DNA of 64,000 nt from Chiloscyllium plagiosum (Eukaryota): contig NC_057718.1 of assembly GCF_004010195.1 (NCBI RefSeq), positions 89,693,497-89,757,496 on the forward strand. The letters run 5' to 3'. Below the pieces are notes generated by a model, which was not told where the DNA came from, made no database searches, and saw only the letters and a list, made by a program, of their open reading frames with translations. A program made the position numbers and the translations under genes. Of the stretch, positions 2,297 through 58,620 are shown piece after piece. Position 1 is the stretch's first letter. Each line of letters starts with the position of its first letter.

Positions 2297-2448
2297 GAGT
2301 CAAAATGTGTGGTGCTGGAAAAGCACAGCTGGTCAGGCAGCATCTGAGCAGCAGGAGAGTCGACGTTTCGAGCATAAGCTCTTCATCAGGAAACTGCTCT
2401 TCATCCTGACAGGTTTTGACTCTGGTGTTCAGCATCTGCACTTTCTCC
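2297..2448 (-). mobile_element. PLE family A terminal fragment with intact hammerhead core
   Basis: Minus strand CTGATGA-A-GAGC-ttat-GCTC-GAAA-CGTC (2362-2389); flanking direct repeat cttag(g/a)agattt at 2285-2296 and 2449-2460. Confidence 0.8.
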
Positions 2449-2781
2449 CTTAGAAGATTTCCACAGCAACCAGACTTACGCATGGCAAAACACTGGCAGC
2501 CTCAATCATATTTACTTTACAACAGAAGGATCTATTTGTCTTTAATCTGTCTTGTAATACATTCAAACGCGTTGTTTAACACTGCATTAAACAGCTCCCC
2601 CCCAGTCAAACTGCTGACACCAAGTACAATTCAAGAAGTAATGTCTCAGGTCAATGAACTTATCAGTTCTGACAAAACAACACAGGAGTCAGACATTGAC
2701 TCGATGTTTTTCTCTGTCCAGTTGCTGCCACTCCTGGTTATTCTCTCCAATATTCTCTCCAAGTAGTGTAGGCTGAATTTT

Positions 2782-3032
2782 CATAGAATCCCTACAGCGT
2801 GGATGCAGGCCATTCAGCCCATCCACACCAACCATTCGAAGAGCATCCAACCCAGACTCACCCCAACCCCGCATTTCGCAAGGCTAACCCACAACATACT
2901 ACATATTTTTGGACTGTTGGAGGAAACCGGAGCATCCAGAGGAAACCCACGCAGACAGGGGGAGAATGTGCAAACTCCACACAGACAGTCACCTGAGGGC
3001 GGAATCAAATCTGGGAGCCTGGTGCTGTGAGA
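2782..3032 (-). mobile_element. HE1-like tRNA-derived V-SINE
   Basis: V-domain gtgactgtctgtgtggagtttgcacattctccc..gggtttcctc on the minus strand, CR1-like tail. Confidence 0.85.
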
Positions 3033-3034
3033 CA

Positions 3035-4450
3035 GTCATAGAGGCATGGAAACAGACCCTTCGGTCCAACTCGTCCATGCCAACCAGTTATCCTAACCTA
3101 ATTTAGTCCCATTTGCCAGCATTTGGCCCATATCCCTCCAAACCCTTCCTATTCATGTACCCATCCAGATGCCTTTTAAATGCTGTAATCGTACCAGCCT
3201 CCAGCACTTCCTCTGGCAGCTCATTCCATACACACACCACCCTCTGTGTGAAAAAGTTCCCCGTTAGGTCTCTTTTATATCTTTCCCTCCCACCCTAAAC
3301 CTATGCCCTCTAGGTCTGGACTCCCCCACCCCAGGGAAAAGACCTGGTCTATTATACCCTATCAATGCCCCCTCATGATTTTATAAATCTCTATAAGATC
3401 ACCTCTCAACCTCTGACACTCCAGGGAAAACAGCCCCACCCTGTTCAGCCTCTCCCTATAGCTCAAATCGTCCAACCCTGGCACCATCCTTGTAAATCTT
3501 TTCTGAACATTTTCAAGTTTCACACTACCTTTCCGATAGGAAGGAGACCAGCAATATTCCAACCAATGTCCTGTACAGACCTCCCAACTCCTGTACACAA
3601 TACTCAATAAAGGAAAGCATCTCAAACGCCGCCTTCACTATCCTATCTACCTGCGACTTCACTTTCAAGGAGCTATGAACCTGCACTCCCCAGGACCTTA
3701 CTATTAAATGTATATGTCCTGCTCTGATTTGCCTTTCCAAACTGCAGTACCTCGCAGTTTTCTAAATTAAACTTCATCTGCCACCACTCAGCCCATTGGC
3801 CCATCTGCTCAAGATCCCATTGTAATCTGAGATAACCTTTGCTGTCCACTTCGCCTCCAATTTTGGTGTCATCTGCAAACTTAGTAACTATACCTCCTGT
3901 GTTCACATCCAAATCATTTATATAAATGATGAAAAATAGTGGACCCAGCACCGATCCTTGTGGCCACAGGGATCCTCTGGTCACAGGGCTGCAGTCTGAA
4001 AAGCAACCCTCCACCACCACCCTCTGTCTTCTACCTTTGAGCCAGTTCTGTATCCAAATGGCTAGTTCTCCATGTATTCCATGAGATCTAACCTTGTTAA
4101 CTAGTCTTCCATGAGGACCCTTGTTGAAAGTCTTACTGAGGTCCATATACAGCATCGAGGAGAAAGTGAGAACTGCAGATGCTGGAGGTCAGAGTTGAGA
4201 GTGTGGTGCAGGAAAAGCAGAGCAGGTCAGGCAGCATCTGAGGAGCAGGAAAATCGACATTTCAGGCATAAGCCCTTGATCAGGAAGGGTTTCCAGATGA
4301 AAGGTTTATGCCTGAAATGTCGATTCTCCTGCTCCTCGGATGCTGCCTGACCTGCTGTGCTTTTCTAGCACCACACTCTCAAGTCCATATAGATCATGAC
4401 CACCGCTCTGCCCTCATCAATCCTCTTAATTGCTTCTTCAAAAAACTCAA
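3035..4450 (-). mobile_element. CR1 LINE RT and 3' end, decayed, interrupted by a PLE palindrome
   Basis: PQGSVLGPLFFIIYINDLD..KFADDTK RT motifs; frameshifts and deletions. Confidence 0.92.
4157..4380. mobile_element. PLE family A fold-back element (degenerate hammerhead on both arms)
   Basis: Inverted arms centred near 4290; degenerate TSD gtccatata(c/g)a..cat on both sides. Confidence 0.8.
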
Positions 4451-4749
4451 TCACGTTAGCAGCCGTGCTAATCCCACTGAGCCACTGTGTTGTTTTGCTC
4501 ATTATTTATTTGATGATGTTACCTGAAGTACCTTCACTTGCTCTGCTAATTTAACAACATTGTATGAACACAAGCAGTGTGGATATTACATCTATATATT
4601 AATTCATGTGTATGATTGTAAAGAAACGAATTAAAGATTGTGTAGTGCGCATATGGGTGAAGCTCCACATCAATATTCTGCATCTTACAAAGCCACTGGG
4701 GTTTCGGGGGGAATGATCCTTTGTTTCCCGATAACTGATGGAGGACATA

Positions 4750-4930
4750 CTGTACATGCAGGACATCAGCTCACGGAGTGGTTCAGGGAACATCTCTGCA
4801 ACACATGCACCCAACAGCCCCCATCGCCCCCACTTCAACTTCCCCTCCCACTCCTCCAAGAACATGCAAGTCCTGGGCCTCCTCCACCGCCAAATCCTTG
4901 CCTCCCAACAACTAGAGGAAGAGCACCTCA
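4750..4930 (+). mobile_element. Penelope-like GIY-YIG endonuclease fragment
   Basis: GHQLTEWFREHL and HFNFPSHSSKNMQVLGLLHRQILASQQLEEEHLI resemble the PLE GIY-YIG R..EH, HF and E motifs. Confidence 0.8.
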
Positions 4931-5785
4931 TAGAGTCATAGAGATCTAGAGCACAGAAACAGACCCTTCAATCCAACATGTCCATGCCGACCAGATATCC
5001 AAACCTAATCTAATTCCATTAGCTAGCATTTGGCCAATACCCTATCTAAACCCTTCCTATTCATATACCCATCCAGATGCCTTTTAAATGCTGTAATTGT
5101 ACCAGCCTCCATCACTTCCTCTGGCAGCTCATTCCACACACGCACGACGCTCTATGTGAAACCATTGCCCCTTAGGTCCATTTTATATCTTTCCCCTCTC
5201 ACCCAAAACCTATGCCCTCTAGTTCTGGACTCCCCCACCCTAGGGAAAAGACTCTGTCTATTATACCTTATGCATGCCCCTCATGATTTTATAAACTTCT
5301 ATAAGGTCACCCCTCAGCCTCCAACGCTCCAGGGAAAACAGCCCCAGCCTGTTCAGCCTCTCCCAATAGCTCAAATCCTCCAACCCTGGTAACATCCTTG
5401 TAAGTCTTTTCTGAACCTTTTCAAGTTTCACAACATCCTTCCTCGAGCAGGGAGACTGGAATTGCACGCAGTATTCCAAAAGTGGCCAAAACAATGTCCT
5501 GTACAGCTGCAACATGACCTCCCAACTCCTACGATCAATGCTCTGACCAACAAAGGAAAGCATACCAAATGTCTTTTTCATTATCCTATCTACCTGAGAC
5601 TCTATTTTCAATGAACTATGAACCTGCACTCCAAGGTCTCTTTGCTCAGCAACACTCCCCAGGACCTTACCATTAAGCGTACAAGTCCCGCTCTGATTTA
5701 CTTTTCCAAAATGCAGCACCTTGTATCTATCTAAATTAAACTCCATTTGCCACTCCTCAGCCCATTAGCCCATCTGATCAAAGGA
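4928..5785 (-). mobile_element. CR1 LINE 3' fragment
   Basis: ORF 5261-5746 MEFNLD..RDLGVQVHSSLK..LEYCVQF..RLRGDLIEVYK plus 3' UTR. Confidence 0.92.
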
Positions 5786-5809
5786 ACGTTCTGCCTTGGG
5801 AGTCTTCAA

Positions 5810-6630
5810 CCTTTTTGTTATTTATATAAATGATTTGGATGTGAACATAGGAGGTCGAGTTAGTAAGTTTGCAGATGACACCAGAATTGAAGGTGCAGCG
5901 GACAGCGAAGGCTACCTCAGAGTACAATGAGATCTTGACCAGATGGGCCAATAGGCTGAGGAATTGCAGATGGAGTTAATTTAGATAAATGTGAGGTGCT
6001 GCATTTTGGAAAGGGGAATCAGGGCAGGACTTATACACTTAATGGTAAAGTCCTGAGGAGAGTTGTTGAATGAGGAGACCTTGGAGTGCAGGTTCACAGC
6101 TCCTTGAAAGTGGAGTCGCAGGTAGATAGTATAGTGAAGGAGGCGTTTGGTATGCTTTCCTTTATTGGTCAGAGTATTGAGTACAGGAGTTGGGAGGTCA
6201 TGTTCTGGCTGTACAGGACATTGGTTCGCCACTGTTGGAATATTGCGTTAAATTCTGGTCTTTGTCCTGTAGGAATGATGTTGCGAAACTTGAATGGGTT
6301 CAGAAAAAATTTACAAGGATGTTGCCAAGGATGGAGAGCAGAGGCTGAATATTCTGGGGCTGTTTTCCCTCAGCGTCGGAGGCTGAGGGGTGACCTTATA
6401 GAGGTTTATAAGATCATCGGGGCCTGGATAGGATAAATAGACAAGGTTCTTTCCCTGGGGTGTGGGAGTCCATACTAGAGGGCATAGGTTTAGAGTGAGA
6501 GGGGAAAGATATAAAAGGGACCTAAGGGACAACTTTTTCACACAGAGGGTGGTGCTTGTGTGGAATGAGCTGCCAAAGGAAGCGGTGGAGGCTGGTACAA
6601 TTACAACATTTAAAAGGGATTTGGATGGGT
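5810..6630 (+). mobile_element. CR1 LINE RT-to-3' fragment, runs into an assembly gap
   Basis: YINDLD..KFADDT; NFFTQRVVLVWNELP. Confidence 0.9.
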
Positions 6631-6746
6631 NNNNNNNNNNNNNNNNNNNNNNNNNNNNNNNNNNNNNNNNNNNNNNNNNNNNNNNNNNNNNNNNNNNNNN
6701 NNNNNNNNNNNNNNNNNNNNNNNNNNNNNNNNNNNNNNNNNNNNNN

Positions 6747-6945
6747 ACCCCCCCACCGGCCTCTACCCATTGCATTCCCAGCCACCTTCCCCCCAGTCCC
6801 ACCCCTTACCCTCCTATTTTTCTCTCAGCCTTCATCCTCCCCCCTCACATTGCTGATGAAGGGCTTATGCCCGAAACATCGATTCTCCTGCCCCTCAGTT
6901 GCTGCCTGACCTGCTGTGTTTTTCCAGCGTCACACCTTTTGACTG
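6747..6945 (+). mobile_element. PLE family A 3' end with hammerhead motif
   Basis: Pyrimidine tract, then CTGATGA(6853)-A-GGGC-ttat-GCCC-GAAA-CATC. Confidence 0.8.
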
Positions 6946-7700: not shown

Positions 7701-8390
7701 GTGTGTGTGTCTGTGCGTGTGTGTCTGTGCGTGTGTGTGTGTGTNNNNNNNNNNNNNNNNNNNNNNNNNNNNNNNNNNNNNNNNNNNNNNNNNNNNNNNN
7801 NNNNNNNNNNNNNNNNNNNNNNNNNNNNNNNNNNNNNNNNNNNNNNNNNNNNNNNNNNNNNNNNNNNNNNNNNNNNNNNNNNNNNNNNNNNNNNNNNNNN
7901 NNNNNNNNNNNNNNNNCGTGTGTGTGTGCCTGTGTGTATGTGCGTGGGTGTGTGTATGTGCGTGTGTGTGTGGCTGTGCGTGTGTGTGTGGCTGTGCGTG
8001 TGTGTGTGGCTGTGCGTGTGTGTGTGGCTGTGCGTGTGTGTGTGGCTGTGCGTGTGTGTGTGGCTGTGCGTGTGTGTGTGGCTGTGCGTGTGTGTGTGGC
8101 TGTGCGTGTGTGTGTGGCTGTGCGTGTGTGTGTGGCTGTGCGTGTGTGTGTGGCTGTGCGTGTGTGTGTGGCTGTGCGTGTGTGTGTGGCTGTGCGTGTG
8201 TGTGTGGCTGTGCGTGTGTGTGTGGCTGTGCGTGTGTGTGTGGCTGTGCGTGTGTGTGTGGCTGTGCGTGTGTGTGTGGCTGTGCGTGTGTGTGTGGCTG
8301 TGCGTGTGTGTGTGGCTGTGCGTGTGTGTGTGGCTGTGCGTGTGTGTGTGGCTGTGCGTGTGTGTGTGTCTGTGTTCGTGTGCCTATGTG
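7701..8390. repeat. GT-derived tandem repeat, 18-bp unit ggctgtgcgtgtgtgtgt
   Basis: About 22 near-perfect units from 7972; contains an N gap. Confidence 0.95.
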
Positions 8391-8544
8391 TGCAGAAAGT
8401 TCCATATGCACCAATCTGAACTTTCCGGGGTTGGCATGAGTCCAATGAAATCTCAGAATTTCTCACAATAAAGCACCTTTCCTGTCCCCTGCCCACGGTG
8501 CCCATCCCATGGCCTGTCAACTCAGACATCCTACTCAAGCCTCC

Positions 8545-8720: not shown

Positions 8721-8732
8721 TTTATGCTGGTA

Positions 8733-9245
8733 GAAAGTGAGGACTGCAGATGCTGGAGATCAGAGTCAAAAATTGTGGTGCTGGAAAGGCACAGCCGGTC
8801 AGGCAGCATCCAAGGAGGAGGAGATATTGACCTTAAGTCCTGGGCTTCCTCCACCACCAAACTCTAACCACACGATGCCTGACGGAAGAACGCCTCATCC
8901 TCCGCCTTGGGACCTTCCAACCACAACGGATCAATGTCGATTTCACCTATTTTCTCATCTCCCCTCCCCCAGATCCAACCCTCCAACTCGGCACCACCCT
9001 CTTGAACTGTCCTACCTGTCCACCTTCCTTCCCAAATATCCGCTCCACCCTCCTCGCCGACTATCACCGTCACCCTCCATCTTCATCTACCTATCACCTT
9101 CCTAGCTACCTTCCCCCCACCCCAACACCCCCCATTTATCTCTCAGCCCCCTTGGGTCCCTCCCCACATTCCTGATGAAGAGCTTATGCTCGATATGTTG
9201 ACTCTCCCTGTTCCTGGGATGCTTTTCCAGCACCACACTTTTTGA
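8733..9245 (+). mobile_element. PLE family A: inverted terminal repeat, GIY-YIG C-terminus and 3' repeat
   Basis: VLGFLHHQTLTTRCLTEERLILRLGTFQPQRINVDF; inverted 8733-8830 precedes the sense copy; degenerate hammerhead at 9172. Confidence 0.85.
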
Positions 9246-13375: not shown

Positions 13376-14166
13376 TGGCCTCCATCATCTGCCAACACAG
13401 CTTTAGGGAGATTTGCTGAACGGTCTCCCACCATGGAAATTAATGGGAATGAGAATCAGACTAATGGGCAGCCCATGCACATTGCCATTGTAGCGATTGC
13501 AGGGACTGAGGGCAGACATGCCATTTTTCAGTTCAGTTACTACACACAGACTCCATCTACCTCCTCGGTCAGTTGACAAAGATTCCACGGTGTGACATTT
13601 TTGAACAGCTAACAGGAGTTATCCCCAGGACGCTCGTCAATGTCTGTCCCTTAGCCACCAACTTAACTGGCCATTTGTAAAATTTGTGGGATCTTGGTAT
13701 GCTACCATCTTCACCCACAAAATAATCGCGACTACATTTCCAAATGTAATTAGTGGTTTAATAAGTAATTCGGGAGTGCACACCAAGGTGTAGTGGTAAT
13801 ATACAAGCAAGAATATCTTATTTTATCTATCTTCACAGAACACAATAGAAGAGAAAGACTTTACCCTCCTCTTTTGTTAGAATGCAGCAGAATTAAAATC
13901 AAAATAAACAAAGAACTCCATATTACAATGTTTTTGTTTGTCTCTGTCAGCGCTGGCTGGTTAGCATGCATTTGTACTTCAGAGAATTCAGACAAAGAAT
14001 TCGTGCAGAGCAAGTTAAATTCAGCGAACTAATTAGCATTAACAAAAATATAACCAGACAACAGGTCAGTCAGTACCTGTAAGGGGACAAGTGAGTTTAA
14101 TGTTAATTGTTTCAAGCAGAGACTCATTTTAACACAGGTCTCCAACCTGTCCATTTCTATTCACAG

Positions 14167-14398
14167 CTGGAAATGTGTTGCTGGAAAAGCGCAGCAGGTC
14201 AGGCAGCATCCAGGGAACAGGAGAATCGACGTTTCGGGCATAAGCCCTTCTTCAGGAAAGAAGCCATTCCTGAAGAAGGGCTTATGCCCGAAACGTCGAT
14301 TCTCCTGTTCCCTGGATGCTGCCTGACCTGCTGCGCTTTTCCAGCAACACATTTCCAGCTCTGATCTCCAGCATCTGCAGACCTCACTTTCTCCTCAA
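14167..14398. mobile_element. Young PLE family A fold-back insertion with hammerhead cores on both strands
   Basis: Perfect 94-bp inverted arms 14165-14258 and 14267-14360; 16-bp TSD ccatttctattcacag. Confidence 0.9.
14266..14301 (+). ncRNA. Minimal type I hammerhead ribozyme motif (PLE type; mirrored on the minus strand at about 14224-14258)
   Basis: CTGAAGA(14270)-A-GGGC-ttat-GCCC-GAAA-CGTC; ACGT palindrome in place of stem III; activity untested. Confidence 0.7.
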
Positions 14399-15020: not shown

Positions 15021-17315
15021 GTTATAAGGAGAGGCTAGATAGGCTGGGACTTTGTTCACTGGAGTGTAGGAGGTTGAGACTGACCTTATAGAGATTTATA
15101 AAATCATCAGGGGTATGCATAATGTGAATAGCATGTGTCTTTTCCCTAGGAGTCATATAGGTGTACAGCTTGGAAACAGACCCTTCGGTCCAACCCATCC
15201 ATGCCGACCAGATATCCTAACCTAATCTAGTCCCACCTGCCAGCACCTGGCCCATATCCCTCAAAACCCTTCCTATTCATATACCCATTCAAATGCCACT
15301 TAAATGTTGCAATTGTACCAGCCTCCACCACTTCCTCTGGCAGCTCATTCCATATACGTACCACCCTCTGTGATTTGGATGTGAACATTGGAGGTATAGT
15401 TAGTAAGTTTGCAGATGACACCAAAATTGGAGGTGTAGTGGACAACAAAGAAGGTTACCTCAGAGTACAATGGGACCTTGATCACATGGGCCAATAGGCT
15501 GAGAAGTGGCAGATGGAGTTTAATTTAGATAAATGAGAGATGCTGCATTTTGGAAAGGCAAATCAGGGCAGGACCTATACATAAGGTCCAGGGGAATGTT
15601 GCTGAACAAAGAGACCTTGGACTGCAGGTTCATAGCTCCTTGAGAGTAGAGTCGCAGGTAGATAGGATAATGAAGAAGGTATGCTTTACTTACTTTTTGT
15701 CATTTACATAAATGATTTGGATGTGAGCATAAGAGGTACAGTTAGTAAGTTTGCAGATGACACCAAAATTGGAGGTGTAGTGGACATCAAAGAGGGTTAC
15801 CTCAGATTACAACAGGATCTGGACCAGATGGGCCAATGGGCTGAGAAGTGGCAGATGGAGTTTAATTCAGATAAATGCCAGGTGCTGCATTTTGGGAAAG
15901 CAGCACTACACTTAATGGTAAGGTCAGAGGGAGTGTTGCTGAACAAAGAGACTTCTACACTTAATGGTAAGGTCAGAGGGAGTGTTGCTGAACAAAGAGA
16001 CCTTGAAGTGCAGGTTCATAGCTCCTTGAAAGTGGAGTTTCAGGTAGATAGGATAGTGAAGAAGGTGTTTGGTATGGTTTCCTTTATTGGTCAGAGTATT
16101 GAGTACAGAAGCTGAGAGGTCATGTTGCGACTGTACAGGACACTGGTTAGGCCACTGTTGGAATATTGCAAGCAATTCTGGTCTCCTTCCTATCGGAAAG
16201 ATGTTGTGAAACTTGAAAGAGTTCAGAAAAGATCTATAAGGATGTTGCCAGGGTTGGATGATTTGAGCTATAGGGAGAGGCTGAACAGGCTGGGGCTGTT
16301 TTCCCTGGAGCATCGGAGGCTGAGGGGTGACCTTATAGAGGTTTACAAAATTAGGAGGGCTTGGATAGGGTAAATAGACAAAGTCTTTTCCCTGGGATTG
16401 GGGAGTCCAGAACTAGAGGGCATAGGTTTAGGGTGAGAGGGGAAAGATATAAAAGAGATCTAAGGGGCAATTTTTTCACACAGAGGATGATATGGGTATG
16501 GAATGAGCTGCTAGAGGAAGTGGTGGAGGCTGGTACAATTGCAACATTTAAGAGGCATTTGGATGGGTATATGAATAGGAAGGGTTTGGAGGGATATGGG
16601 CCGGGTGCTGGCAGGTGAGACTAGATTGGGTTGGGATATCTGGTTGGCATGGACAGGTTGGACCGAAGGGTCTGTTTCCATGCTGTACATCTCTATGACT
16701 CTATGGTCAGAGCATTGAGTACAGGAGTTGGGAGGTCATGTTGCGGCTGTACAGGACATTGGTTAGGCCACTGTTGGAGCACCGCATTCAATACTGATCT
16801 CCCTGCTATAGGAAAGACATTGTGAAAGTTGAAAGGGTGGCAGAAAAGATTTACAAGGATGTTGCCTGGGTTGGAGGATTTGAACTACAGGGGGAGGCTG
16901 AAGAGGCTGGGGCTGTTTTCCCTGGAGCGTCGGAGGCTGAGGGGTAACTTTATAGGGGTTTATAAAATCATGAAGGGCATGGATAGAGTGAATAGCCAAG
17001 GAAGTCCAAAACTAGAGGGCATAGGTTAAGGGTGAGAGGGGAAAGATTTAAAAAGGTCCTGAACGGCAACATTTTCACTCAGAGGGTGGTGCATGTATGG
17101 AATGAGCTGCCAGAGGAAGTGGTGGAGATTGGTACAATTGCAAAATTGAAAAGACATCCAAATGGGTACACAAATAGGAAGGGTTTAGAGGTTTATGGGC
17201 CAAATGAAAGCCAATGGGACTAGGTTAATTTAGGGTATCTGGTCGACATGGACAAGTTGGAGCGAAGGTTCTGTTTCTGTTCTGTACGTCTCTAAGACTC
17301 TATGTCAATGATTCT
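15015..17315 (+). mobile_element. Cluster of CR1 fragments (mostly +; 15151-15370 on -)
   Basis: Two YINDLD/KFADDTKIGG starts; three 3' ends; internal 49-bp tandem duplication 15906-16001. Confidence 0.92.
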
Positions 17316-21772: not shown

Positions 21773-21819
21773 TAGGGATTTTAAAGGGGCCTAGAGTTTC
21801 AACAAACAGAGTTATATAG

Positions 21820-22228
21820 GAGAAAGTGAGGACTGCAGATGCTGGAGATCAGAGTCGAGAGTATGGTGCTGGAAAAGCACAGCAGGTCAGGTAGCATCCG
21901 AGGAGCAGGAGAATCAATGTTTTGGGCGAGAGCCCTTCATCAGCAATGAGGCTGTGAGTCGAGGGATATGGAGAGATAAATGGGAGGGGATGGGGCGGGG
22001 GGAAGGTTGCTGGGAATATGGTAGGTAGATGGAGATGGGGGTAATAGTGATAGGTCGGAGAGGAGGGTGGTGTGGAGAGGTGGGTAGGAAGATGGACAGG
22101 TAGAACAGTTCATGAAGGCGGTGTCGAGTTGGAAGGTTGGCACTGGAATACGGTGAGGGGAGGGTAAATGAGGAAACTGGTAAAATCCACATTGATGCTG
22201 TGTGGTTGGAGGGTCCCGAGGTAGAAGC
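21820..22228 (-). mobile_element. PLE family A 3' portion
   Basis: LGTLQPHSINVDFTSFLI GIY-YIG tail, pyrimidine tract, degenerate hammerhead. Confidence 0.85.
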
Positions 22229-23801
22229 TGAGTTGTGTGTTAATCCAATCACAATTCTGTTTACCTGTAGATAGAACATATTTATTTGTAATACTCAGTA
22301 GTTCCTATTAAATACAGGAACCTGGTCAGTTAACCTGAGTTCATCAGACAGATAAGTGGGCACATCAGGAGGAGTGGAGTTCAAGAATCGGTGCACCTTC
22401 CCAATTGTAGCAATTCCTAGTTTAGTCATACACCATAATGCTACCAGCCTTGGCAATATATTGGCAGAAGCCATAACTGAGTAGCAATGAATCAATGGTC
22501 AACAATTCTCTCAATAACAACAACAGCAACCCACCCCTGTGCCTTGGGATGTCTGATTGACACAAAAGAGCAGGTTCACTTTTGACTGTTTTGAGTTGTG
22601 CTCAAGTGCCCAGTGGAGTGGGTAAGTCTAACCCTGACCTTTAATCCTCTTGAGTTTAACTCTCCGTACATGAGACTGAGTGATTTTAATCTTAGAATTC
22701 AGACTCAATGTGAACGGGAGAGTCAGAAAGGTGAACTGACTCAGTCACAGAAACCAGAAGATGCCAGGTCTCTCACATCGAGCTCTGAGCCACCTACTCA
22801 TATGGTGAATGGGTAGAGCGATGTTGAAGACAAGAGTAGACGATTGAAGAGTTGCAGAGGGCTGGTTGGACAGAGCAGGTCATGGACAACTCCATAAGGT
22901 CGGTGGGGCGCGTGGGGCAGTCAAACTTGGCTTTAGCTATCATGCTGAGAAGAGGAACCAGCTGCGAGCTGAGGTTGCTGAGCAATCAAAACTCTTAGGC
23001 CAATGCCCTGTGGACTGTCCCCAAGCCGAATAAGGAAGTGGACATCGAAGGTTCCTGGGAGCAGGGAAGGGGGAACCCGCAAAAGCCCAACCTCAATGGT
23101 GTTGAAAGGTCAAGAAGCTTCTTTGCTCACCCACTGACCTTAATTTCCTTCTTAGTTCCTCCATTCTCTGGAATCAACAACTTGCATTCACATTGCACCT
23201 TCGTAAATCATCCCAAGATGCTTCACAGAAGTATATTCAGAGACCGAGCCACATGAGAAGACAATTGTGCACGAGGGTCATAAGAAAGGAGAGAGATGGC
23301 CTAGTGGTATTACCTAGTGGGGCAGCAATGGCCTAATGGTATGATCATTAAACTGGGGACCTGGGTTCAAATCCCACCATGGCTGATGGCGGAATTTGAA
23401 TTTGATAAAAACTTGGAATTAATTACCATTGCCAGTTATTGGGAAAAAACCCATCTGGTTCACTCATTCCCTTCAGGGAAGGAAATCTGCCACACTTACC
23501 TGGTCTGGCCTACATGTGACTCCAGACCCACAGCGATGTGGTTGACTCTCAACTCCCCTTTATGTGATTAGGAATGGGGTAATATGTGCTGCCCTAGCTG
23601 GTGACACCTACATCTTGTGAATTAATTTTCTAAACAAGTTGGAGACATTTGGACAAGCAAAGAGAAGGAATTTCTCAGCCTGGGGCTGCCTATGGTGAAG
23701 CCATTAAAATATGAGAAATGAAACAGGCCAGAATTAGATGAGTGTTGAAAATGAGGATGCATCAGATGACTGACATAGGGTATAAAGGTGCTTCGAAATG
23801 A

Positions 23802-24110: not shown

Positions 24111-24515
24111 TCTTGAAGATGTGAATTTTAAAATCAAGGCACTCTCAATCCTAGAGCTTTGGTTCAGTAAGCTCAGGGGCAATGATCAAACAGGATTCCA
24201 TGTGAAGTGGGATCGAGACTGCAGATGGGCTGAAGATCTATCTGGAAGAAGACTGATTCCTGACCGACCCTTCGTTTAAAGCAGAAGTAATACTTTGTAG
24301 GTCCAAGGAGCCCCCTGGTCCTGGAACACCATATAAATAGTGCAAGTTCCTAACAAACCCCCCCCCCCCCCCCACAGTGGGGTGAGTTCACGCCAGCAGT
24401 GTAGCCTAGGGCAGAGACAGTCCTGGGACTGTGCTGATGCCTCACAGGGTTTGTGAAAGGTAAATAAAACTGCAAAAGCCTTCTCATGCATTAGTGAGGC
24501 TTCTGTTAGAATCAG

Positions 24516-24604
24516 AATTGAGAGTGTGGTGCTGAAAAAGCACGGCCGGTCAGGCAGTATCCGAGGAGCAGGTGAGTCGACATTTCGGGCATAAGCCCTT
24601 CAAC
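24516..24604 (-). mobile_element. PLE family A short insertion
   Basis: 19-bp TSD aggcttctgttagaatcag at 24497-24515 and 24605-24623. Confidence 0.85.
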
Positions 24605-24644
24605 AGGCTTCTGTTAGAATCAGGAGGGAAGTGGAATACTGCAT

Positions 24645-36004: not shown

Positions 36005-36890
36005 AAAGACATGGCTTGGCTGGTGGTGAGGAGGGTTCTGCCTGTGAGATCCTTCATGTACACCTGGTCTGTCTGCACCACTGCACGCTGCCCTCAGAGT
36101 AACCGTTGAGACTGTCATGCACCTCCTGCTGGAATGTGCCTTTGCAAAGGAAGTCAGGAGGAAGATGCAGTGGTTTGTATCGAGGGTCATCCCGAGCAGC
36201 TCCGTGAAGCAGGACTCTGTGCTCTTTGGTCTGTTCCCCAGGACTCACACCGGGATAGCTACTGACTGCGCCTGGAGGACCATCAACTCGGTGAAAGATA
36301 CTCTTTGGCCTGCCCGAAACTTGTCAGGACGAGGAGTTGACCTCGACCGAGTGTTGCAGAGTGGCACATTCCATAGTCAAGGGCCACGTGCTGAGGGACG
36401 CAATAAAGCCTGGGGTAAATACTGCCAAGACACAGTGGGGAAAGACCACGGTCTGAGGTCCTTCAGCTGAAGTTAAATGGGGATCCGTTCAGTTATTGGA
36501 GCCTCCCAGTGCTTCAAATGTATGTAAATATAGTCTGGTTCAAGTAAGAGATACCTTTGTTTTGTTTGGATCGAGTCAAACTCCAAAGTTTATTTGTTTC
36601 CTTGCTACTGTACAGAATCAAGTTAAAAATCACACAACACCAGGTTATAGTCCAACAGGTTTAATTGGAGCTCCTTTTGTCAGGTGGTTGTGAGCAGCAG
36701 CGTTCCAAAAGCTAGTGCTTCCAAATAAACCTTTAGGACTATAACCTGGTGTTGTGTAATTTTTAACTTAGTACGCCCCAATCCAATACAAGCGTCTCCA
36801 AATCATGTACAGAACCAAAATGCATTTGTGCCTATGTGTATTCCTTTATGAATAAAACATACTTTGTAATTTAAACAAAATTGACAAACA
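36005..36890 (+). mobile_element. Tx1/L1-clade LINE 3' fragment
   Basis: HLLLECAFAKEV..DSVLFGLFP..AWRTINSVKDTLW.ARN; aataaa and A-rich tail. Confidence 0.85.
36622..36805. mobile_element. PLE family B fold-back insertion inside Tx1
   Basis: Inverted arms; TSD tgtacagaa(t/c)caa at 36609-36621 and 36806-36818. Confidence 0.8.
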
Positions 36891-40114: not shown

Positions 40115-40322
40115 CATCTAAATGGAACCGGAAATGATATCACCAACCGTAACAGGCCGAGCACATAAATAGAAAGCGGGGCAGAACACCTGCGCTTGAC
40201 CAGAGGCTCACTGATGATGTTACCCAGCATGGTGACGAAACGCCTGAAAACAAACCGTCTAGCTCAGCTACGAACTTACAACCTGACCCTCAACCTGAGC
40301 TACAAATCTTCTCAAAAATTGC
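40115..40322 (+). mobile_element. PLE family C 3' terminal repeat with hammerhead motif
   Basis: CTGATGA(40211)-T-GTTACC-cagcat-GGTGAC-GAAA-CGCC. Confidence 0.7.
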
Positions 40323-40719: not shown

Positions 40720-41760
40720 TTTTGTTCACGAGTGGGATGCGGGCATCGCTGGCTGGTCAGCATCCATTGCCCGTCCCTAATTGCTCTTGAGAAGGTGGTG
40801 GTGAGCTGCCTTCCTGAACCGCTGCAGTCCACATGCTTTAAGTTGACCTACAATGCCCTTGGGGAGGGATTTCCAGGATTTTGACCCAGTGACACTGAAG
40901 GAACAGCGATATATTTCCAAGTCAGGATGGCTTGGAGAGGATCTTGCAGGTGGTGGTGTTTCCATGAATCTGCTGCCTTTGTCCTTCCAGGTGGTCATGG
41001 GTTTGGAAGGTGTTGTCTGAGGATCTTTGGTGAATTTCTGCAGTACACCCTGCTGCTTCTGAGCGTCGGTGGTGGAGGCAATGAGTGTTTGTGGATGTGG
41101 TGCCAATTAAGCGGGCTGCTTTGTCCTGGATAGTGTCAACCCTCTTGAGTGTTGTTGGAGCTGCACCCATCCAAGCAAGTGGGGAGTATTCCATCACACT
41201 CCTGACTTGTGCCTTACAGATGGTGGACCGGCTTTGGAGAGTCAGGAGGTGAGTTACTCACCACAGTAATTCCCCGCCTCTGACCTACTCTTGTAGCCAC
41301 TGTGTTTATGTGGTGAGTCCAGTTGAGTTTCTGGACCATGATAACCCCCAAGATGTTGGTAGTGGGGGATTCAGTGTTGGCAACACTACTGAATTTCGAG
41401 GGGCGGTGGTTAGATTGTCTCTTCTCAGAGATGGTCATTACTTGGCATTTGTGTGGCGTGAACATTACGTCTCACTTGTCAGCCCAAGCCTGGATATTGT
41501 CGAGATCTTGTTGCATTTGAACATGGACTGCTTCAGTGTCTGAGGAATTGCGAATGATGCTGAACATTGTGCAAGCAACGGTGAACATCCCCACTTCTAA
41601 CCTTATGATGGAGAGAAGGTCATTGATGAAGCAGCTGAAGATGTTTGGGCCTAGGGACATTTCTTTGTGGAACTCTTGCTAGAGATATCCTGAAGCTATG
41701 GTGATTGACCTCCAACAACCACAACCATCTTCCAAAGTGCCAGGTATGACTCTAACTTCT
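40720..41760 (-). mobile_element. Second CR1/L2-group LINE, RT-to-3' end
   Basis: LGPNIFSCFINDL..QQDLDNIQAWADK..MEYSPLAWMGAAPTTLKRVDTIQDKAARLIG. Confidence 0.9.
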
Positions 41761-42120: not shown

Positions 42121-42463
42121 GAATTTCCACCAGTTTCCTCATTTCTCCTTCCCCACCTCACCCCAGCTCCAGCCTTCCAGCTCAGCACCGCCCTCATGAC
42201 TTGTCCTACCTGCCTATCTTCCTTTCCACCTATCCACTCCACCCTCCTCCCTGACCTATCACCTTCATCCACATCCCCAATCACCTATTGTACTCTATGC
42301 TACTTTCTCCCCACCCCCACCACCCCCTCTCATTTATCTCTCCACTGCAGGCTCCCTGCCTCTATTCCCGATGAAGGGCATTTGCCCGAAACGTCGATTT
42401 CCCTGCTCCTCAGATGCTGCCTGAACTGCTGTGCTTTTCCAGCACCACTCTAATCTAAACTCT
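42121..42463 (+). mobile_element. PLE family A 3' portion
   Basis: Pyrimidine tract; CCGATGA-A-GGGC-attt-GCCC-GAAA-CGTC at 42368; flanking direct repeat tccaacta. Confidence 0.85.
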
Positions 42464-42867: not shown

Positions 42868-44640
42868 CCTCCAGACCACACCGGGCCTTGGCTCCAAACC
42901 ACACCAGACCGTGACTCCAGTCCACACCGGGCCGTGACTCCAAACCACACCCGACCGTGACTCAAGACCACACCCGACCGTGACTCCAGATCACACCGGA
43001 CTGTGACTCCAGACCACACCAGGCCTTGACTCCAGACCACACCGGGTCTTGACTCCAAACCACACCGGACCGTGACTCCAGACCACACCGGGCCCTGACT
43101 CTAGACCACACCCGACCGTGACTCCAGACCACACCGGGCCGTGACTCCAGACCACACCGGACCGTAATTCCAGACCACACCGGACCGTGACTCCAGACCA
43201 CACCGGGCCCTGACTCCAGACCACAACGGGCAGTGACTCCAGACCACACCGGACCGTGACTCCAGACCACACCGGGCCCTGACTCCAGACCACACCGGGC
43301 CCTGACTCCAGACCACACCAGGCCGTGACTCCAGACCACACCGGGCCCTGACTCCAGACCACACCAGGCCGTGACTCCAGACCACACCGGGCCTTGACTC
43401 CAGACAACACCGGGCCTTGACTCCAAACCACACCGGGCCTTGACTCCAGACCACACCGGGTCTTGACTCCAAACCACACCGGGCCGTGACTCCAGACCAC
43501 ACCGGGCCGTGACTCCAGACCACACCAGGCCTTGACTGCATACCACACCGGGTCTTGACTCCAGACCACACCGGGCCCTGACTCCAGACCACACCGGGCC
43601 CTGACTCCAGACCACACCGGGCTGTGACTCCAGACCACACCGGGCCCTGACTCCAGACCACACCGGGCCGTGACTCCAGACCACACCGGGCCTTGACTCC
43701 AAACCACACCGGGCCTTGACTCCAGACCACACCGGGCCTTGACTCCAGACCACACCCGACCGTGACTCCAAACCACACCGGGCCGTGACTCCAGAACACA
43801 CCGGGCCGTGACTCCAGACCACACCAGGCCTTGACTGCAAACCACACCGGACCGTGACTCCAGACCACACCAGGCCTTGACTCCAGACCACACCGGGTCT
43901 TGACTCCAAACCACACCGGGCCGTGACTCCAGACCACACCAGGCCTTGACTGCAAACCACACCAGGCTGTGACTCCAGACCACACTGGGCCCTGACTCCA
44001 GACCACACTGGGCCTTGACTCCAAACCACACTGTGCCTTGACTCCAAACCACACCGGGCCTTGACTCCAAACCTTACCGGACAGTGACTCCAGTCCATAC
44101 CAGGCCTTGACTCCAGACGACATCAGGTCGTGACTCCATTCCACACCGAGCCCTGACTCCAATTCACACCAGGCTGTGACTCCAGACCACACCGGGCCCT
44201 GACTCCAGTCCACCCCAGGCCTTGACTGCAAACCTCACCAGGCTTTGACTCCAGACCACACTGGGCCTTGACTCCATTCCATTCCAAAGTCTAGATTAGA
44301 GTGGTGCTGAAAAAGCACAGCAGGCCATGCAGCATCCGAGGAGCAGGAAAATCCTGATGAAGGACTTTTGCCCAAAACGTCGGTTTTCCTGCTCCTCAGA
44401 TGCTGCCTGACCTGCCATTCTTTTCCAGCTCCACTCTAATCTAGACTCTGGTTTCCAGAATCTGCAATCCTCACTTTTGCCTCCATTCCACCCCAGGCCC
44501 TGACTCCAGTCCACCCCAGGCCTTGACTCCATTCCACCCCAGGCCCTGACTCCAGTCCACCCCAGGCCTTGACTCCAGTCCACCCCAGGCCTTGACTCCA
44601 GTCCACACTGGGTCTTGACTCAAGTCCACATCAGGCCTCA
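42868..44640. repeat. 23-bp GC-rich minisatellite (tgactccagaccacaccgggccn), more than 60 units
   Basis: Strict 23-bp period; interrupted by a PLE at about 44286-44480. Confidence 0.97.
44286..44480. mobile_element. PLE family A fold-back inserted in the minisatellite
   Basis: Inverted arms around CTGATGA at 44354. Confidence 0.85.
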
Positions 44641-52639: not shown

Positions 52640-52846
52640 TCTGGATTAGTGGTGCTGGAAGAGCACAGCAGTTCAGGCAGCATCCAAGGAGCAGCGAAAT
52701 CGACATTTCGGGCAATTATTCCTGATGAAGGGCTTTTGCCCGAAACGTCGATTTCGCTGCTCCTTGGATGCTGCCTGAACTGCTGTGCTCTTCCAGCACC
52801 ACTAATCCAGAATCTGGTTTCCAGCAACTGCAGTCATTGTTTTTAC
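52640..52846. mobile_element. PLE family A fold-back insertion with intact hammerhead core
   Basis: Arms about 52638-52715 and 52736-52813; 15-bp TSD ctaaaagaagcaaat; CTGATGA at 52722. Confidence 0.9.
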
Positions 52847-53037
52847 CTAAAAGAAGCAAATGCCAAAATAACAGAGGTATTGATCCCAATCTCTTGTTCC
52901 TCGCAGCTTCCAGGAGTAATCCTGAAAAGATGCTACTCTTCGAGAAAAGGGAAGAGACAGAAAACCAGGAAACTATACGCTAATCAATCTAATACCAATG
53001 GTGGAGAAATGATTGGAAATCATTATTAGAGATCAAA

Positions 53038-53620: not shown

Positions 53621-53624
53621 AAAT

Positions 53625-54480: not shown

Positions 54481-54726
54481 GATTCAGGCATATGAGAAAC
54501 AATGGACCAAAAACCCAGTTTATAGACTGTCTGTTTGAGCTTAGGGAAGAGGATTGGCGTGGAGGTGCAAAGATTATGGATGAAGAAAGTGAGTCAATTT
54601 AAGTATGTGACGCAGTGGCAGCAGAAGATGAAAGTAAATCAAAATGAAGCAAAAGATTATGCTGGTGTACTTAAACATTAAAGATGTACGGGGGGGGGGG
54701 TGGTTGTGCATGATCGAATTACCTCA

Positions 54727-55600
54727 TTGGAACTGATAGGAAGAACTTACAAGACCATTGTGAGCATGGTCTTATGATGTCAGCAACCTGGTCAATATAA
54801 GAGGATGGATACTAACGGGACTTGGAGGCTGAGTGGATATGGAGGGTGATGAGAAAGGACAAGGCCAGGGACAAGCTCATCATGGGGTCAGTGAAGGTGG
54901 TGGGAGCATTAAAGAAAGGGTGGCATGAAGGCTTAGTGGTTAGCACTGCTGCCTCACAGCACCAGGGACCTGGGTTCGATTCCAACCTCAAGTGACTGAC
55001 TGTGTGGAGTTTGCACATTCTCCCCGAGTCTGCGTGGGTTTGCTCTGGTTTCCTCCCACAGTCTGAAGATGTGCAGGCCGGATGAATTGGCCATGCTAAA
55101 TTGCCCATAATGTTAGGTGCACTAGTCAGAGGGAAATGGGTCTGGGTGGGTTACTCTTCGGAGGGTCAGTTGGAACTGATAGGAAGAACTTACAAGACCA
55201 TTGTGAGCATGGTCTTGTGATGTCAGCAACCTGGTCAATATAAGAGGATGGATACTAACGGGACCTGGAGGCTGAGTGGATATGGAGGGTGATGAGAAAG
55301 GACAAGGCCAGGGACAAGCTCATCATGGGGTCAGTGAAGGTGGTGGGAGCATTAAAGAAAGAAGCAGGGTGGCACTGCTGCCTCACAGCACCAGGGACCT
55401 GGGTTCGATTCCAACCTCAAGTGACTGTCTGTGTGGAGTTTGCACATTCTCCACGTGTCTGTGTGGGTTTGCTCTGGTTTCCTCCCACAGTCTGAAGCTG
55501 TGCAGGCCGGATGAATTGGCCATGCTAAATTGCCCATAATGTTAGGTGCACTAGTCAGAGGGAAATGGGTCTGGGTGGGTTACTCTTCGGAGGGTCAGTG
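54727..55600 (+). repeat. 443-bp direct tandem duplication including an HE1-like SINE
   Basis: Units start ttggaactgatagg at 54727 and 55170, nearly identical. Confidence 0.95.
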
Positions 55601-57689
55601 TGGATGTGTTGGACTGAAGGGCCTGTTTCCACACTGTAGGGAATCCAATTTAATCTAAAAGCCCCAAAGAGATTTTATTCACGAGACATGGGGCATCACG
55701 GCTTAGACGTTTATTGCTCAGTTAAACAGCAAAGTGTCTGGAGTCACTTGCAGGCCAGACCCGTACTTCCTTCCCTAAAGAGCATTAGTTTTCCCAACAA
55801 TGGTTCCATTACTGGATTCTTAATTCCAGATTTTGATTACACTGAAAGTCCAGGATTCAACCCCAGAATATTACCTGGGTCTCTAGATTACTAGCCCAAT
55901 GACACGACAGTCAGGACACCTGATGCAAAGCGAGTGCAACTGTGGTGAGGCGAGTGATGGAGGTGGGAGTGATTCAGATCAAAGGAGAGGAGGAAGACCT
56001 ACGAGTGAGTGGAAAGCTGTGCCAGTGGGAGGCAGCAGGACTGGACGAGGAATGGCTGACTAACAGGAGGTGAAGAGCAGTCAGCCAACGTTGTGGTGAC
56101 CTTGAATAAAATGGGAGAAGTGAGAAGAGGAAGAAGAAACTAATAGAGAAAGATCATTTCCTCTGGTGAACAGGTCAACAACCAGTTGACTTCAAACCAT
56201 TAACAGAAAATCAAAAAGGAAAGTGAAGGGAATGTTTTTCAAAGGAGAGAGTTGTGAACATCCATCGCCCACCTGATTCCATCAATAATTTTAAAAGGGA
56301 ATCGATTAGGTAGGTGAGCACAAGGAGCTTACAGTGAGATATGTACAAGTGTGGAATTTAGCACATATTCTTTCAAACAGCCAGTAACAGAGTAATGGGC
56401 GGAATTGTCTCCTTGTGTTACAGAAACTTTCTATGATTCTTTACTGCAGTACTGAGGGGGTGCAGCACTGTCAAAGGTCTGGTATTTTGGATGAGACATT
56501 AAACAGAGACCCTAACTGTTCTACAAAGAAGGATCCCAAAGCAAGCACAGGATAAATGCGCAGTGTTCCGGACAGTAACTATCCTTTAACATGGAGCTGC
56601 TGAAAGACATTCTTTTGTAGTGATCTCATTGCTGATTGTGGGATCTTGCTGCATAAAACAGGCAGCCATATTAAAATGGTGGCCACATCTGCTCTGAGGT
56701 GCTCCAAGTGGTGAAAAGCACTACCCAAAAGAAATTCCTTTCCTCAGCCAGACTCTGTATCTCGTTCCTGATGTCAAATGCTCAGGATCGGAACTGGGAG
56801 GTGAAAGAGATGTACCTCCAGTCCTGGAGAAGGGTCACACCCGAAACATCACCTTCTCCACCTCCTGATGCTGCCTGGCTTGCTGTGTTCTCCCAGCCTC
56901 CTGCATCTCTAGTCAGCATCACTCTCTTCTTTAATTAGCCCAAAAAAAATCACACCCAAAAAAATCCCAAACGGCAGAAAACCGAAACACCTGTATCTTG
57001 AGAGTCAGGGAAGGAATTATTATTTACTGTGTAAAATCCCTGCGATAGCTACAGGGTTAGGGTTAAATCTTGAATGACGAATGTATTCCCTAAGTAATGT
57101 GTGTCACTCCTTGGCAATTAATAATTGACACTTATATGGCATTAATTTACTTTCTTCCACTGACGCAGTTTTTACTGAAAGCTGTGTTTCTTCTAAATAG
57201 CAAGCGTGAGCCCAAACAGTAGAGAGGGACACAATTCATCCATTCTGCCTTACCGCTCTGCAATTTCAAGTGCTGTTATGTAACTCTCTTTTGAAAGCTG
57301 TTGCTGAAGTTGGTTCCTTTCTGGCACTGTTTTTTTAGATTGTGACCATCTTTCTGTGTGAAGTTTCTCCTCTGCACAAGCAGACTCAGGCTAATCAAGA
57401 AAACCCCACTGAAAACCAGAATACGGAGTCCACAGCCAGGCGATTATCTGACTCTCGGTCACAAAGTAATGCGTCTGGAACAAACGCTGGGAGGAAGCAG
57501 GTCACTTTTAAGACCTTGCATTCCGGCTCTGAGAGTTCCATGTTGACCTACTGTGGTGACCTCCTTATAAAAGTGTGGTCAAATTTGTGCAGGGCACACC
57601 AGGAATACAGTGAGTATGCAACGGACCAGGCTAGGTGGCACACTCCGGATTGACAGTGAGTCGGTCTGTAAAGGGAGTCAGCCAGCATT

Positions 57690-58620
57690 TGTCCAGCTCA
57701 TCAGGACAAGAATACCAATAAAGGGGCAAAGCAGCATTTACATTGTATGAGAGGCGGGTGCAGACTGGTTGGCTAGTGGAGACTGATTGATACAGACACG
57801 CCATGGTGAACGCAGAAGTTAATGATGAGTGACAGTTAACTGCCGTGCTTTAAGGATCAATATTAAACCATGCAGGTTGACTCGATTACAGCCATTTAAA
57901 AGGCATTTGGATGGGTATATGAATAGGAAGATTTAGAGGGATATGGGCCAAGTGCTGGGATTAGATTAGGTTGGGATATCTGGTTGGCCTGGATGAGTTA
58001 AACCGAAGGGTCTATTTCCATGCTGTACATCTCTATGACTCTACGGTCAGGGAATTGCCCTGAGAAATGAACCGGCAAATGGTTGTCACCTATTTTGTTA
58101 TGGGTCGTATCAACCCATTGCATCCCTTTGGTTAATCACAACAAGCAACTCCATTCACACAGCCTGCACTTGCAAAACAGTTTCTAACATTCAATATGTT
58201 TCTGCGATTGGACACCATTTGCTGAATAATCCTGAATATGTGAAGATTCTCCTGCTCCTCGGATGCTGCCTGAGCTGCTGTGCTTTTCCAGCACCACACT
58301 CTCGTCTCTGATCTCCAGCATCTGCAGCCCTCACTTTCTCCCTGTGTGAAGAATTACACTGACAACAAGTTTGAGACTGTCACATGGGCTCCCAGTGTGG
58401 CACACTTGTGTGCCCAAAGGTAGATATATTAACACACAGGACCCCCTTTCATGGCCGTCAGAACAAACGTTTGCACACACCATACCTGGCTCAACTCAAC
58501 AGAACCAACACCTTCCTCTCATACAATATACAGTTGGTCTTCCCATTTCTCAATGTTCTTGCAAATTGTCCTGACAAATGCAAGACAAAAAGCTTCAACA
58601 AAATGTGCTTTCGCTTAACA
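57690..58620 (+). mobile_element. PLE family D: inverted terminal repeat, GIY-YIG C-terminus and 3' repeat, with nested CR1 tail (57887-58043) and family A insert (58245-58342)
   Basis: CKTVSNIQYVSAIGHHLLNNPEYVK/NYTDNKFETV..AHL..YINTQDP; 57705-57775 is an inverted match to 58505-58575. Confidence 0.75.

What the first reader, a model, noticed from the sequence alone, without database searches (positions are those of the whole stretch)
2359..58342. Abundant short PLE family carries a minimal hammerhead ribozyme with covarying stem II
Seen: about ten SINE-sized copies read CTGA(T/A)GA-A-stem-GAAA-CGTC. Stem II varies but keeps pairing: GAGC/GCTC (2370, 9180), GGGC/GCCC with loops ttat, tttt, attt and tctc (14278, 52730, 42376, 21924), and AGGT/GCCT (about 4302). 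Longer copies (8733, 21820) join this end to a GIY-YIG C-terminus. Known: PLEs carry minimal type I hammerheads whose palindromic stem III allows cleavage as dimers. Inference: what looks like a shark SINE is a ribozyme-bearing PLE terminus, potentially a very large genomic reservoir of self-cleaving RNA.
Basis: partly seen in the sequence, partly recalled or inferred. Interest (0 to 1): 0.72.

Follow-up and report, generated by a model that had tools for sequence, protein, structure and literature searches.

The report
Shark Penelope stubs with minimal hammerheads
The short repeats are end pieces of a Penelope-type jumping gene in a shark-like genome and carry the already described minimal hammerhead ribozyme motif, but most copies here are damaged or locked in hairpins, and most short ones begin just in front of the motif, so they likely record the capped start of uncut element RNA rather than a store of working ribozymes.

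Summary
Motif and Penelope link are real; 'covariation' and 'reservoir' are overstated. The window holds 11 insertions of a Neptune-type Penelope-like element (PLE) end. Longer copies carry the GIY-YIG C-terminus (best named hits: whale shark, skates). A strict minimal-hammerhead descriptor hits 5 places versus 0 in 150 shuffles, but only 4 of 13 aligned arms are intact, and 3 of the 7 cited. Covariation does not exceed shuffles; catalytic G12 decays at the CpG rate in a public run. No tandem dimers occur; all intact arms lie in fold-backs, where the core is predicted paired or sequestered. PLE minimal hammerheads are published (PMC4209133). Extra: 8 of 13 short arms start 0-5 nt before the core, about 32 nt behind a conserved TATA-like box; 7 of 8 listed contig joints there carry an extra G; 2 arms start at the predicted cut. 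Likely run-off copies of capped RNA, a minority of cut RNA. The scan noted this before on other DNA (529 notes, at least 33 genomes), and the cap reading came from those notes.

The parts
2297..2392 (-). Family A short arm, intact minimal hammerhead (C3 at 2389, GAGC/GCTC), no tail; degenerate inverted partner with tail at about 2394-2448; 12-nt TSD
4158..4382 (.). Family A fold-back: minus arm 4158-4286 with tail (core G8>C), plus arm 4291-4382 without tail (core U4>A, AGGT/GCCT); 9-nt TSD
4746..4932 (+). Isolated, frameshifted PLE GIY-YIG fragment
6747..6945 (+). Family A long arm, 5' end lost in an N gap; helix I and III palindrome broken
8726..9243 (.). Family A insertion: inverted short arm 8726-8835(-) with tail, then long arm 8836-9243(+) with GIY-YIG C-terminus, 3' UTR, TATA-like box and broken hammerhead (C3 at 9172); 12-nt TSD
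8837..8971 (+). C-terminal 45 codons of the PLE GIY-YIG endonuclease
   Evidence: tblastn E 1.5e-11 to a whale-shark protein
9133..9142 (+). Conserved TATA-like box (also at 6814+, 21982-, 42331+), 26-28 nt of free spacer, then initiator-like CATT directly before the hammerhead; promoter role inferred
14167..14398 (.). Young family A fold-back (arms 99% identical): minus arm 14167-14258 without tail, plus arm 14265-14398 with tail; both hammerheads intact (C3 at 14255- and 14270+; predicted cut 14297|14298); 16-nt TSD
21819..22235 (-). Family A long arm: GIY-YIG C-terminus 22137-22235, 3' UTR, broken hammerhead (G12>A), tail
24513..24607 (-). Family A single stub starting at the core (A6>U), 19-nt direct repeat overlapping both ends
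42129..42462 (+). Family A long arm of another subfamily; hammerhead with U4>C, otherwise intact
44285..44480 (.). Family A fold-back inside a 23-bp minisatellite; minus arm starts at the predicted cut site (44353; 2-nt ambiguity), plus arm at the core (G12>A)
52640..52846 (.). Family A fold-back: minus arm starts in loop II, plus arm 52718-52846 with intact hammerhead (C3 at 52722) and tail; 15-nt TSD
58245..58344 (+). Family A single stub starting at the predicted cut site (2-nt ambiguity), with tail; 8-nt TSD
56816..56900 (+). Diverged relative of family A with stem GGGT/ACCC and 3-nt loop; core damaged
62722..62933 (.). Family B fold-back with a different minimal hammerhead (C3 at 62804-, 5-bp stem II, GC palindrome, cut after UA, 3-bp helix I); further copies 36620-36805 and 1236-1359
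40199..40300 (+). Family C single minimal hammerhead (C3 at 40211, 6-bp stem II, U16.1>C)

Best explanation
These repeats are short end pieces (pLTR stubs and head-to-head fold-backs) of a Neptune-type Penelope-like retrotransposon that carry the known minimal hammerhead motif, and the short ones are likely run-off DNA copies of the capped, uncut front end of the element's RNA, with a minority likely copied from ribozyme-cut RNA. Shown: PLE identity, motif, target-site duplications, fold-back layout with a tail on exactly one arm, clustering of arm starts 0-5 nt before the core, neutral decay after insertion. Inferred: the element RNA starts at the A four bases before CUGA, about 32 nt behind a TATA-like box. 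The PLE protein nicks both target strands and primes reverse transcription at two sites roughly 95 and 125 nt downstream of the core (as shown in vitro for the anole element). Priming in the 5' pLTR runs off the cap and gives a 100-130-nt stub, often with an extra G; priming in the 3' pLTR gives longer, randomly truncated copies reaching into GIY-YIG; two cDNAs joined head to head give the fold-backs. The motif would be kept by selection on master elements only, would need a dimer and probably the PLE protein to cut, and inserted stubs are mostly dead.
For: PLE identity: a profile of two window fragments finds 73 proteins at E<=0.001; of 16 scanned, 8 have Pfam GIY-YIG hits and one also an RT with YIDD; several show the CX4CXXC linker of Neptune/Nematis (PMC8557442). 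Motif: 5 strict hits vs 0 in 150 shuffles, fitting the published consensus. Layout: clear TSDs of 8-19 nt at 7 of 11 insertions; 6 of 6 family A and 3 of 3 family B fold-backs have the tail on one arm only; two 3' end clusters 46 nt apart in all four runs. Starts: 8 of 13 short arms at -5..0 of C3 (6 independent insertions). TATA-like box in 4 of 4 long arms, spacer length kept while its identity drops to 41-47%. In run X15, 7 of 8 listed joints into 14266 have a G directly before it, and the loose-end consensus there ends in G. An extra G from the cap is known for full-length L1 (PMC11702581, passage). Cut-site starts: 58245 and 44353; partner ends at 14297-14301 in 7 of 11 listed joints; a joint from cut+1 to the A start in three runs. 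Selection on masters only: common non-CpG variants lie at N7 (26%) and loop II (21%, 9%), while U4, A13, A14, A15.1 vary by at most 0.3%, but G12>A (11.8%) equals the tolerated C11.1>T (11.2%).
Against: No RNA start was measured: the one raw RNA run shows no pile-up of ends (a fragmented polyA single-cell library, 2% read). In the window a G precedes position -4 in only 2 of 6 informative arms, both with T instead of A there. The TATA-like box is a weak match and about 1-3 nt further upstream than usual (recalled spacing); D. virilis Penelope has a TATA-less internal promoter (PMC2377424). Table 5c does not print the kind of joint, its rows may not be independent, and none of its 11 rows ends exactly at 14298; the cut site is not among the loose-end rows shown (193 hidden). 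The reference lacks upstream sequence, so long copies also pile up at 14265. Both window cut-site starts have 2-nt microhomology. No full-length ORF or RT of this family is in the window, and no genome was available.
Confidence: 0.65

Rival explanations
1. A separate non-autonomous mini-element (SINE- or MITE-like master whose boundary is the hammerhead's first base) is amplified in trans by the PLE proteins.
For: Very high abundance of the last 130 nt relative to upstream parts (depth falls more than 100-fold upstream of the motif, partly through divergence of the reference); shared start; Li et al. 2026 (bioRxiv 10.64898/2026.07.22.740005) derive non-autonomous retrozymes from pLTRs.
Against: Stubs come from several subfamilies that also have long copies; every fold-back junction differs; the two arms of young insertions are 99% identical to each other but only 82-87% to other copies, as expected if each is built anew; unrelated family B shows the same layout.
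Confidence: 0.12
2. One reading: dispersed copies form a large reservoir of active self-cleaving RNA, with stem II under selection in the copies.
For: 4 intact arms in 64 kb; reads on both strands in an RNA run; stem II 98% paired.
Against: 9 of 13 arms damaged; G12 lost at the CpG rate; covariation not above shuffles; no tandem copies; read-through of 14161-14395 and 52641-52850 gives stem II probability 0; helix I probability at most 0.02 in single arms; hammerhead dimer -13.3 kcal/mol versus -21.9 for an alternative dimer through the UCGA palindrome (nearest-neighbour model only). Published monomers do not cut, dimers cut weakly, 8 of 9 frog dimers did not cut, and the anole motif needed protein.
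Confidence: 0.08
3. The shared start is a structural stop or repair boundary (RT pausing at, or cDNA trimming and microhomology joining around, the stem II hairpin and helix I), not an RNA 5' end; cut-site starts are then microhomology artefacts.
For: Recurrent partner-arm starts at the base of stem II (joints 14266 to 14277/14278 in X15 and X22; both intact-junction family B fold-backs); 44353/44354 joins through helix I complementarity; Arkhipova 2013 explains head-to-head palindromes by self-priming (PMC3846280).
Against: Does not explain the extra G in joints with inserted letters or the fixed-distance upstream box; 58245 is a single stub with a TSD and no partner arm.
Confidence: 0.15

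Closest known systems
Minimal type I hammerheads in pLTRs of metazoan PLEs (Cervera and de la Pena 2014, PMC4209133; main text parts 1-2 of 4 and supplement parts 1-2 of 3 read)
   Same: Same consensus (CUGANGAH, G10.1-C11.1, GAAA, 2-nt palindrome, UH, short helix I); mostly single motifs in truncated PLEs; several families per genome; nearby motifs on opposite strands; thousands of copies (about 4,000 coelacanth, 9,000 Xenopus).
   Different: No cartilaginous fish in their figure S3 or table S1; family A has a shorter helix II (4 bp) and helix I (2 bp) than most; density here extrapolates to far higher numbers; they do not discuss where stubs start.
Endonuclease-positive PLEs of Neptune type with inverted pLTR, tail and TSD (Craig et al. 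2021 PMC8557442; Arkhipova et al. 2013 PMC3846280; passages read)
   Same: C-terminal GIY-YIG, CX2-5CxxC linker in relatives, heavy 5' truncation, inverted 5' copy, tail on one end only, TSD, putative TATA plus initiator in a pLTR (Adineta).
   Different: Here most insertions are nothing but the pLTR end; the tail is about 46 nt (30-40 published); clade assignment rests on relatives' linker, not on an RT tree.
Poseidon element of Anolis (Frangieh et al. 2024, PMC11167929; parts 1-2 of 4 read)
   Same: Two RT start sites that define the tail, both-strand nicking, hammerhead upstream of the start sites, uncut RNA as main substrate.
   Different: Other clade; they found no RNA reads ending at the cut site and report no genomic copies starting at it or at a cap.
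Animal non-LTR retrozymes (PMC7229834, passages; Li et al. 2026 bioRxiv 10.64898/2026.07.22.740005, parts 1-3 of 5, supplements not seen)
   Same: Type I hammerhead, pLTR kinship, present in one chondrichthyan genome together with PLEs.
   Different: Retrozymes are head-to-tail tandem repeats, typically with canonical hammerheads and circular RNA; the copies here are single or head-to-head with minimal motifs.

Membership tests
EN+ Penelope-like element (Neptune type) | C-terminal GIY-YIG endonuclease upstream of the terminal repeat, same strand | tested here: met
   8837-8971(+) before 9172(+); 22137-22235(-) before 21943(-); only the last 26-45 codons are present
EN+ Penelope-like element (Neptune type) | Telomerase-like RT in the same ORF | tested here: inconclusive
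   No PLE RT in the window; a relative, P0068, has RT plus GIY-YIG
EN+ Penelope-like element (Neptune type) | CX2-5CxxC linker before GIY-YIG | tested here: inconclusive
   Present in relatives P0010, P0021, P0032, P0036, P0068; that part is absent from the window
EN+ Penelope-like element (Neptune type) | Inverted 5'-truncated copy, one-sided tail, TSD | tested here: met
   6 of 11 insertions are fold-backs, tail on one arm in 6 of 6; clear TSD at 7 of 11; two 3' ends in four runs
Minimal type I hammerhead of PLEs | Core CUGANGA/GAAA/UH, helix II closed by G-C after an extra base, palindromic 15.2-16.2, short helix I | tested here: met
   4 of 13 family A arms and 1 family B arm; 0 in 150 shuffles; consensus
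Minimal type I hammerhead of PLEs | Covariation beyond descent within the family | tested here: not met
   (13 rows, little power); across families A, B, C helices differ in sequence yet pair
Minimal type I hammerhead of PLEs | Self-cleavage after C17 as dimer or with protein help | not testable with these tools
   Only indirect: 2 arms start at the predicted cut; no RNA end pile-up
Non-LTR retrozyme | Head-to-tail tandem units each with a hammerhead | tested here: not met
   No tandem array of the family; 2 single-contig 'goes back' joints in X15
SINE | tRNA, 7SL or 5S-derived head with Pol III boxes and a simple-repeat tail | tested here: not met
   No tRNA-like or Rfam match; the 5' end is continuous with the PLE 3' UTR in long copies; Pol III boxes were not searched separately

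The most novel reading that the evidence does not exclude
Shark genomes keep a fossil record of both natural 5' ends of PLE RNA: most stubs are strong-stop-like cDNAs that ran off the cap right before the hammerhead, and a minority ran off the ribozyme cut, which would be the first in vivo trace that a PLE minimal hammerhead cleaves and would show that inverted PLE ends arise from two cDNAs primed on opposite target strands and joined head to head.
Probability: 0.35. Interest if true: 0.7.

Novelty: new member of a known kind. Interest (0 to 1): 0.38.

Why it matters
As a motif it only extends a known PLE feature to sharks, probably at record density. The value lies in the ends: the PLE copying cycle and the role of its hammerhead are open questions (PMC8557442, PMC11167929), and hundreds of thousands of stubs would let the RNA start, the share of cut templates and the two-strand priming model be counted from a genome and then tested by 5' RACE and in vitro.

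Tried and rejected
No whole genome is held for the window, so no genome-wide consensus, tree or R-scape-type test was possible. Rfam gave nothing at gathering score and only chance snoRNA hits on the best copy. Word-indexed protein search with the 45-aa fragment found 0 of 3 candidates; Pfam found nothing on three short window fragments; the full HMMER search did work. A pattern scan of metagenome contigs found 0 matches. Run search: no RNA holder listed; the raw RNA run X22 showed no place where many molecules begin or end, which is uninformative for this library type. Folding z-score of a whole arm was 0.07: no stable global structure. Rejected: AGGT/GCCT as covariation (single broken copy, CpG change); the loose-end peak at 14275 (likely clipping at the N7 mismatch); SINE and retrozyme labels. 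The degenerate arm at 2394-2448 was left out of the start count (17 of 18 arms kept; 4 long, 13 short). Literature: no paper on shark PLE hammerheads or on cap-marked PLE stubs turned up in searches; one search returned one review in which 'shark' only describes the ribozyme's shape; PMC7229834 has no shark passage; PMC7353768 had nothing relevant. The supplements of the 2026 bioRxiv paper, not seen, may list this shark family.
Full report
Observation. Six of the 11 are head-to-head fold-backs. A strict minimal-hammerhead descriptor (core, stem II of at least 4 bp, palindromic 15.2-16.2, helix I of at least 2 bp) hits 5 places, against 0 in 150 dinucleotide shuffles; allowing one core mismatch gives 14 against a mean of 0.7 in 30 shuffles. 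So the motif is real. But only 4 of the 13 aligned arms are intact (2389-, 14255-, 14270+, 52722+), and only 3 of the 7 copies cited: 9180, 21924, 42376 and 4302 have broken cores. Rfam has no model that matches.

Covariation. On the 13 arms, stem II is 98% paired, with a change on both sides in 3 cells; none of five measures exceeds the shuffle control (74 to 412 of 500 shuffles reach the observed values), although the structure beats its slid versions. GAGC/GCTC occurs in two copies that share another diagnostic base, hence probably one event; AGGT/GCCT is one broken copy with a CpG change. Better support for the fold comes from outside the family: two unrelated families in the window (B, 62804-; C, 40211+) and the relative at 56824 keep the core with different helices.

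PLE link. A profile from two window fragments found 73 proteins at E<=0.001 among 1.84 billion. Of 10 looked up, the six with names are from whale shark and skates, which points to an elasmobranch host. Of 16 scanned, 8 have Pfam GIY-YIG hits, most below the curated cut-off, and one also carries an RT; several show a CX4CXXC linker, the mark of Neptune/Nematis elements (PMC8557442, passages). tblastn places the GIY-YIG C-terminus at 8837-8971(+), 22137-22235(-) and 4810-4932(+); no PLE RT is in the window. Clear target-site duplications of 8-19 nt flank 7 of 11 insertions. All 6 family A and all 3 family B fold-backs carry the tail on one arm only, and four public runs show two 3' end clusters 46 nt apart. 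This is the published PLE layout (PMC8557442, PMC3846280; passages).

Abundance and decay. 125,080 contigs of run X15 and 91,526 of X19 lay on a 431-base copy (not a copy number). On the intact copy (X15, depth-weighted), common non-CpG variants lie at N7 (26%) and loop II (21%, 9%), while U4, A13, A14 and A15.1 vary by 0.3% or less; 21 lower-ranked rows were not shown, so the stem II variants could not be counted. CpG sites decay regardless of function: G12>A 11.8%, C11.1>T 11.2%, G16.2>A 11.4%, C15.2>T 9.4%. I read this as selection on master elements and neutral decay after insertion.

Could the copies cut? No head-to-tail copies lie in the window. Read-through of the two young fold-backs gives long hairpins with stem II probability 0; in single arms stem II forms but helix I has probability at most 0.02; the hammerhead dimer (-13.3 kcal/mol) loses to an alternative dimer through the UCGA palindrome (-21.9) (nearest-neighbour energies only). 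This agrees with the literature: monomers inactive and dimers weak (PMC4209133), 8 of 9 frog dimers inactive (bioRxiv 10.64898/2026.07.22.740005), and the anole motif cutting only with PLE protein and not needed for insertion (PMC11167929). The raw RNA run has reads on both strands and no pile-up of ends; its library type cannot show cuts well.

Where the stubs start. Of 17 arms counted (one degenerate arm dropped), 4 are long and 13 short; 8 short arms, in 6 insertions, start 0-5 nt before C3, 2 start at the predicted cut (58245, 44353; each with 2-nt ambiguity), and 3 elsewhere or unclear. I saw this clustering first (note); the reading as a capped RNA start came from earlier notes of this scan, which I then tested. 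All 4 long arms have a TATA-like box 26-28 nt upstream of an initiator-like CATT, with spacer identity of only 41-47% against 75-88% in the box. In X15, 7 of 8 listed joints into 14266 (the A at -4) have a G directly before it (p about 0.003 at a background of one third, rows perhaps not independent), and the loose-end consensus there ends in G. A cap-derived extra G is known for full-length L1 (PMC11702581, passage). Partner ends lie at 14297-14301 in 7 of 11 listed joints, none exactly at 14298, and a joint from cut+1 to the A start appears in one contig each of three runs. Against: a G stands before -4 in only 2 of 6 informative window arms; the box is a weak TATA match; D. virilis Penelope has a TATA-less internal promoter (PMC2377424, passages); the cut site is not among the loose-end rows shown; a third recurrent stop at the base of stem II suggests structure also sets ends.

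Mechanism. Most likely, element RNA starts at the A before the hammerhead; the PLE protein nicks both target strands and primes at two internal sites; priming in the 5' pLTR runs off the cap to give stubs, priming in the 3' pLTR gives longer truncated copies; two cDNAs joined head to head give fold-backs; occasionally the template had been cut by the ribozyme. Identity and layout are shown; RNA start, cap, cleavage and two-strand priming in this family are inferred.

Comparison and verdict. PLE minimal hammerheads are published across metazoans, including fishes, coelacanth, frog and reptiles (PMC4209133); figure S3 and table S1 list no cartilaginous fish, while the 2026 preprint reports hammerhead repeats in one chondrichthyan and PLEs in five vertebrate classes (its supplements were not seen). 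Eight searches found no paper on this shark family or on cap-marked PLE stubs. The finding is a new member of a known kind; the reservoir claim is not supported; the start-site pattern is a testable lead. Interest 0.38.

Noticed in passing
window 62722-62933, 36620-36805, 1236-1359: Family B: a second hammerhead-bearing repeat family, all three copies fold-backs with one-sided tail; in the two with a full junction one arm starts 8 nt before the core and the other at the base of stem II.
   Followed up: partly
window 40199-40300: Family C: single minimal hammerhead with a 6-bp stem II resembling published trematode motifs, U16.1 changed to C, and an ATAAATA box 46 nt upstream; no ORF link found.
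   Followed up: partly
window 4746-4932: Isolated GIY-YIG fragment of the same PLE kind without its terminal repeat.
   Followed up: partly
window 42869-44638: 23-bp minisatellite (about 61 + 7 copies) split by the family A fold-back at 44285-44480; another 23-bp array at 24660-24892 lies 50 nt from a stub.
   Followed up: no
window 14295-14300: The sequence across the cut site is itself palindromic (UCGA; GUCGAC in the GAC subfamily) and is predicted to form a dimer that competes with the active one; it could act as a brake.
   Followed up: partly
window 3673-4188, 5690-6040, 15372-15920, 32596-32703, 41406-41654: Many decayed LINE reverse-transcriptase fragments (tblastn); the window is almost all repeats, with N gaps at about 6631-6746 and near 7745-7920.
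   Followed up: no
P0023, P0021, P0014: Skate gene models in NCBI end in PLE GIY-YIG sequence, for example a neuromedin-U receptor 1; probably annotation read-through into PLE fragments.
   Followed up: no
window 54727-55604: Two-copy tandem duplication of 429 bp at 94% identity.
   Followed up: no
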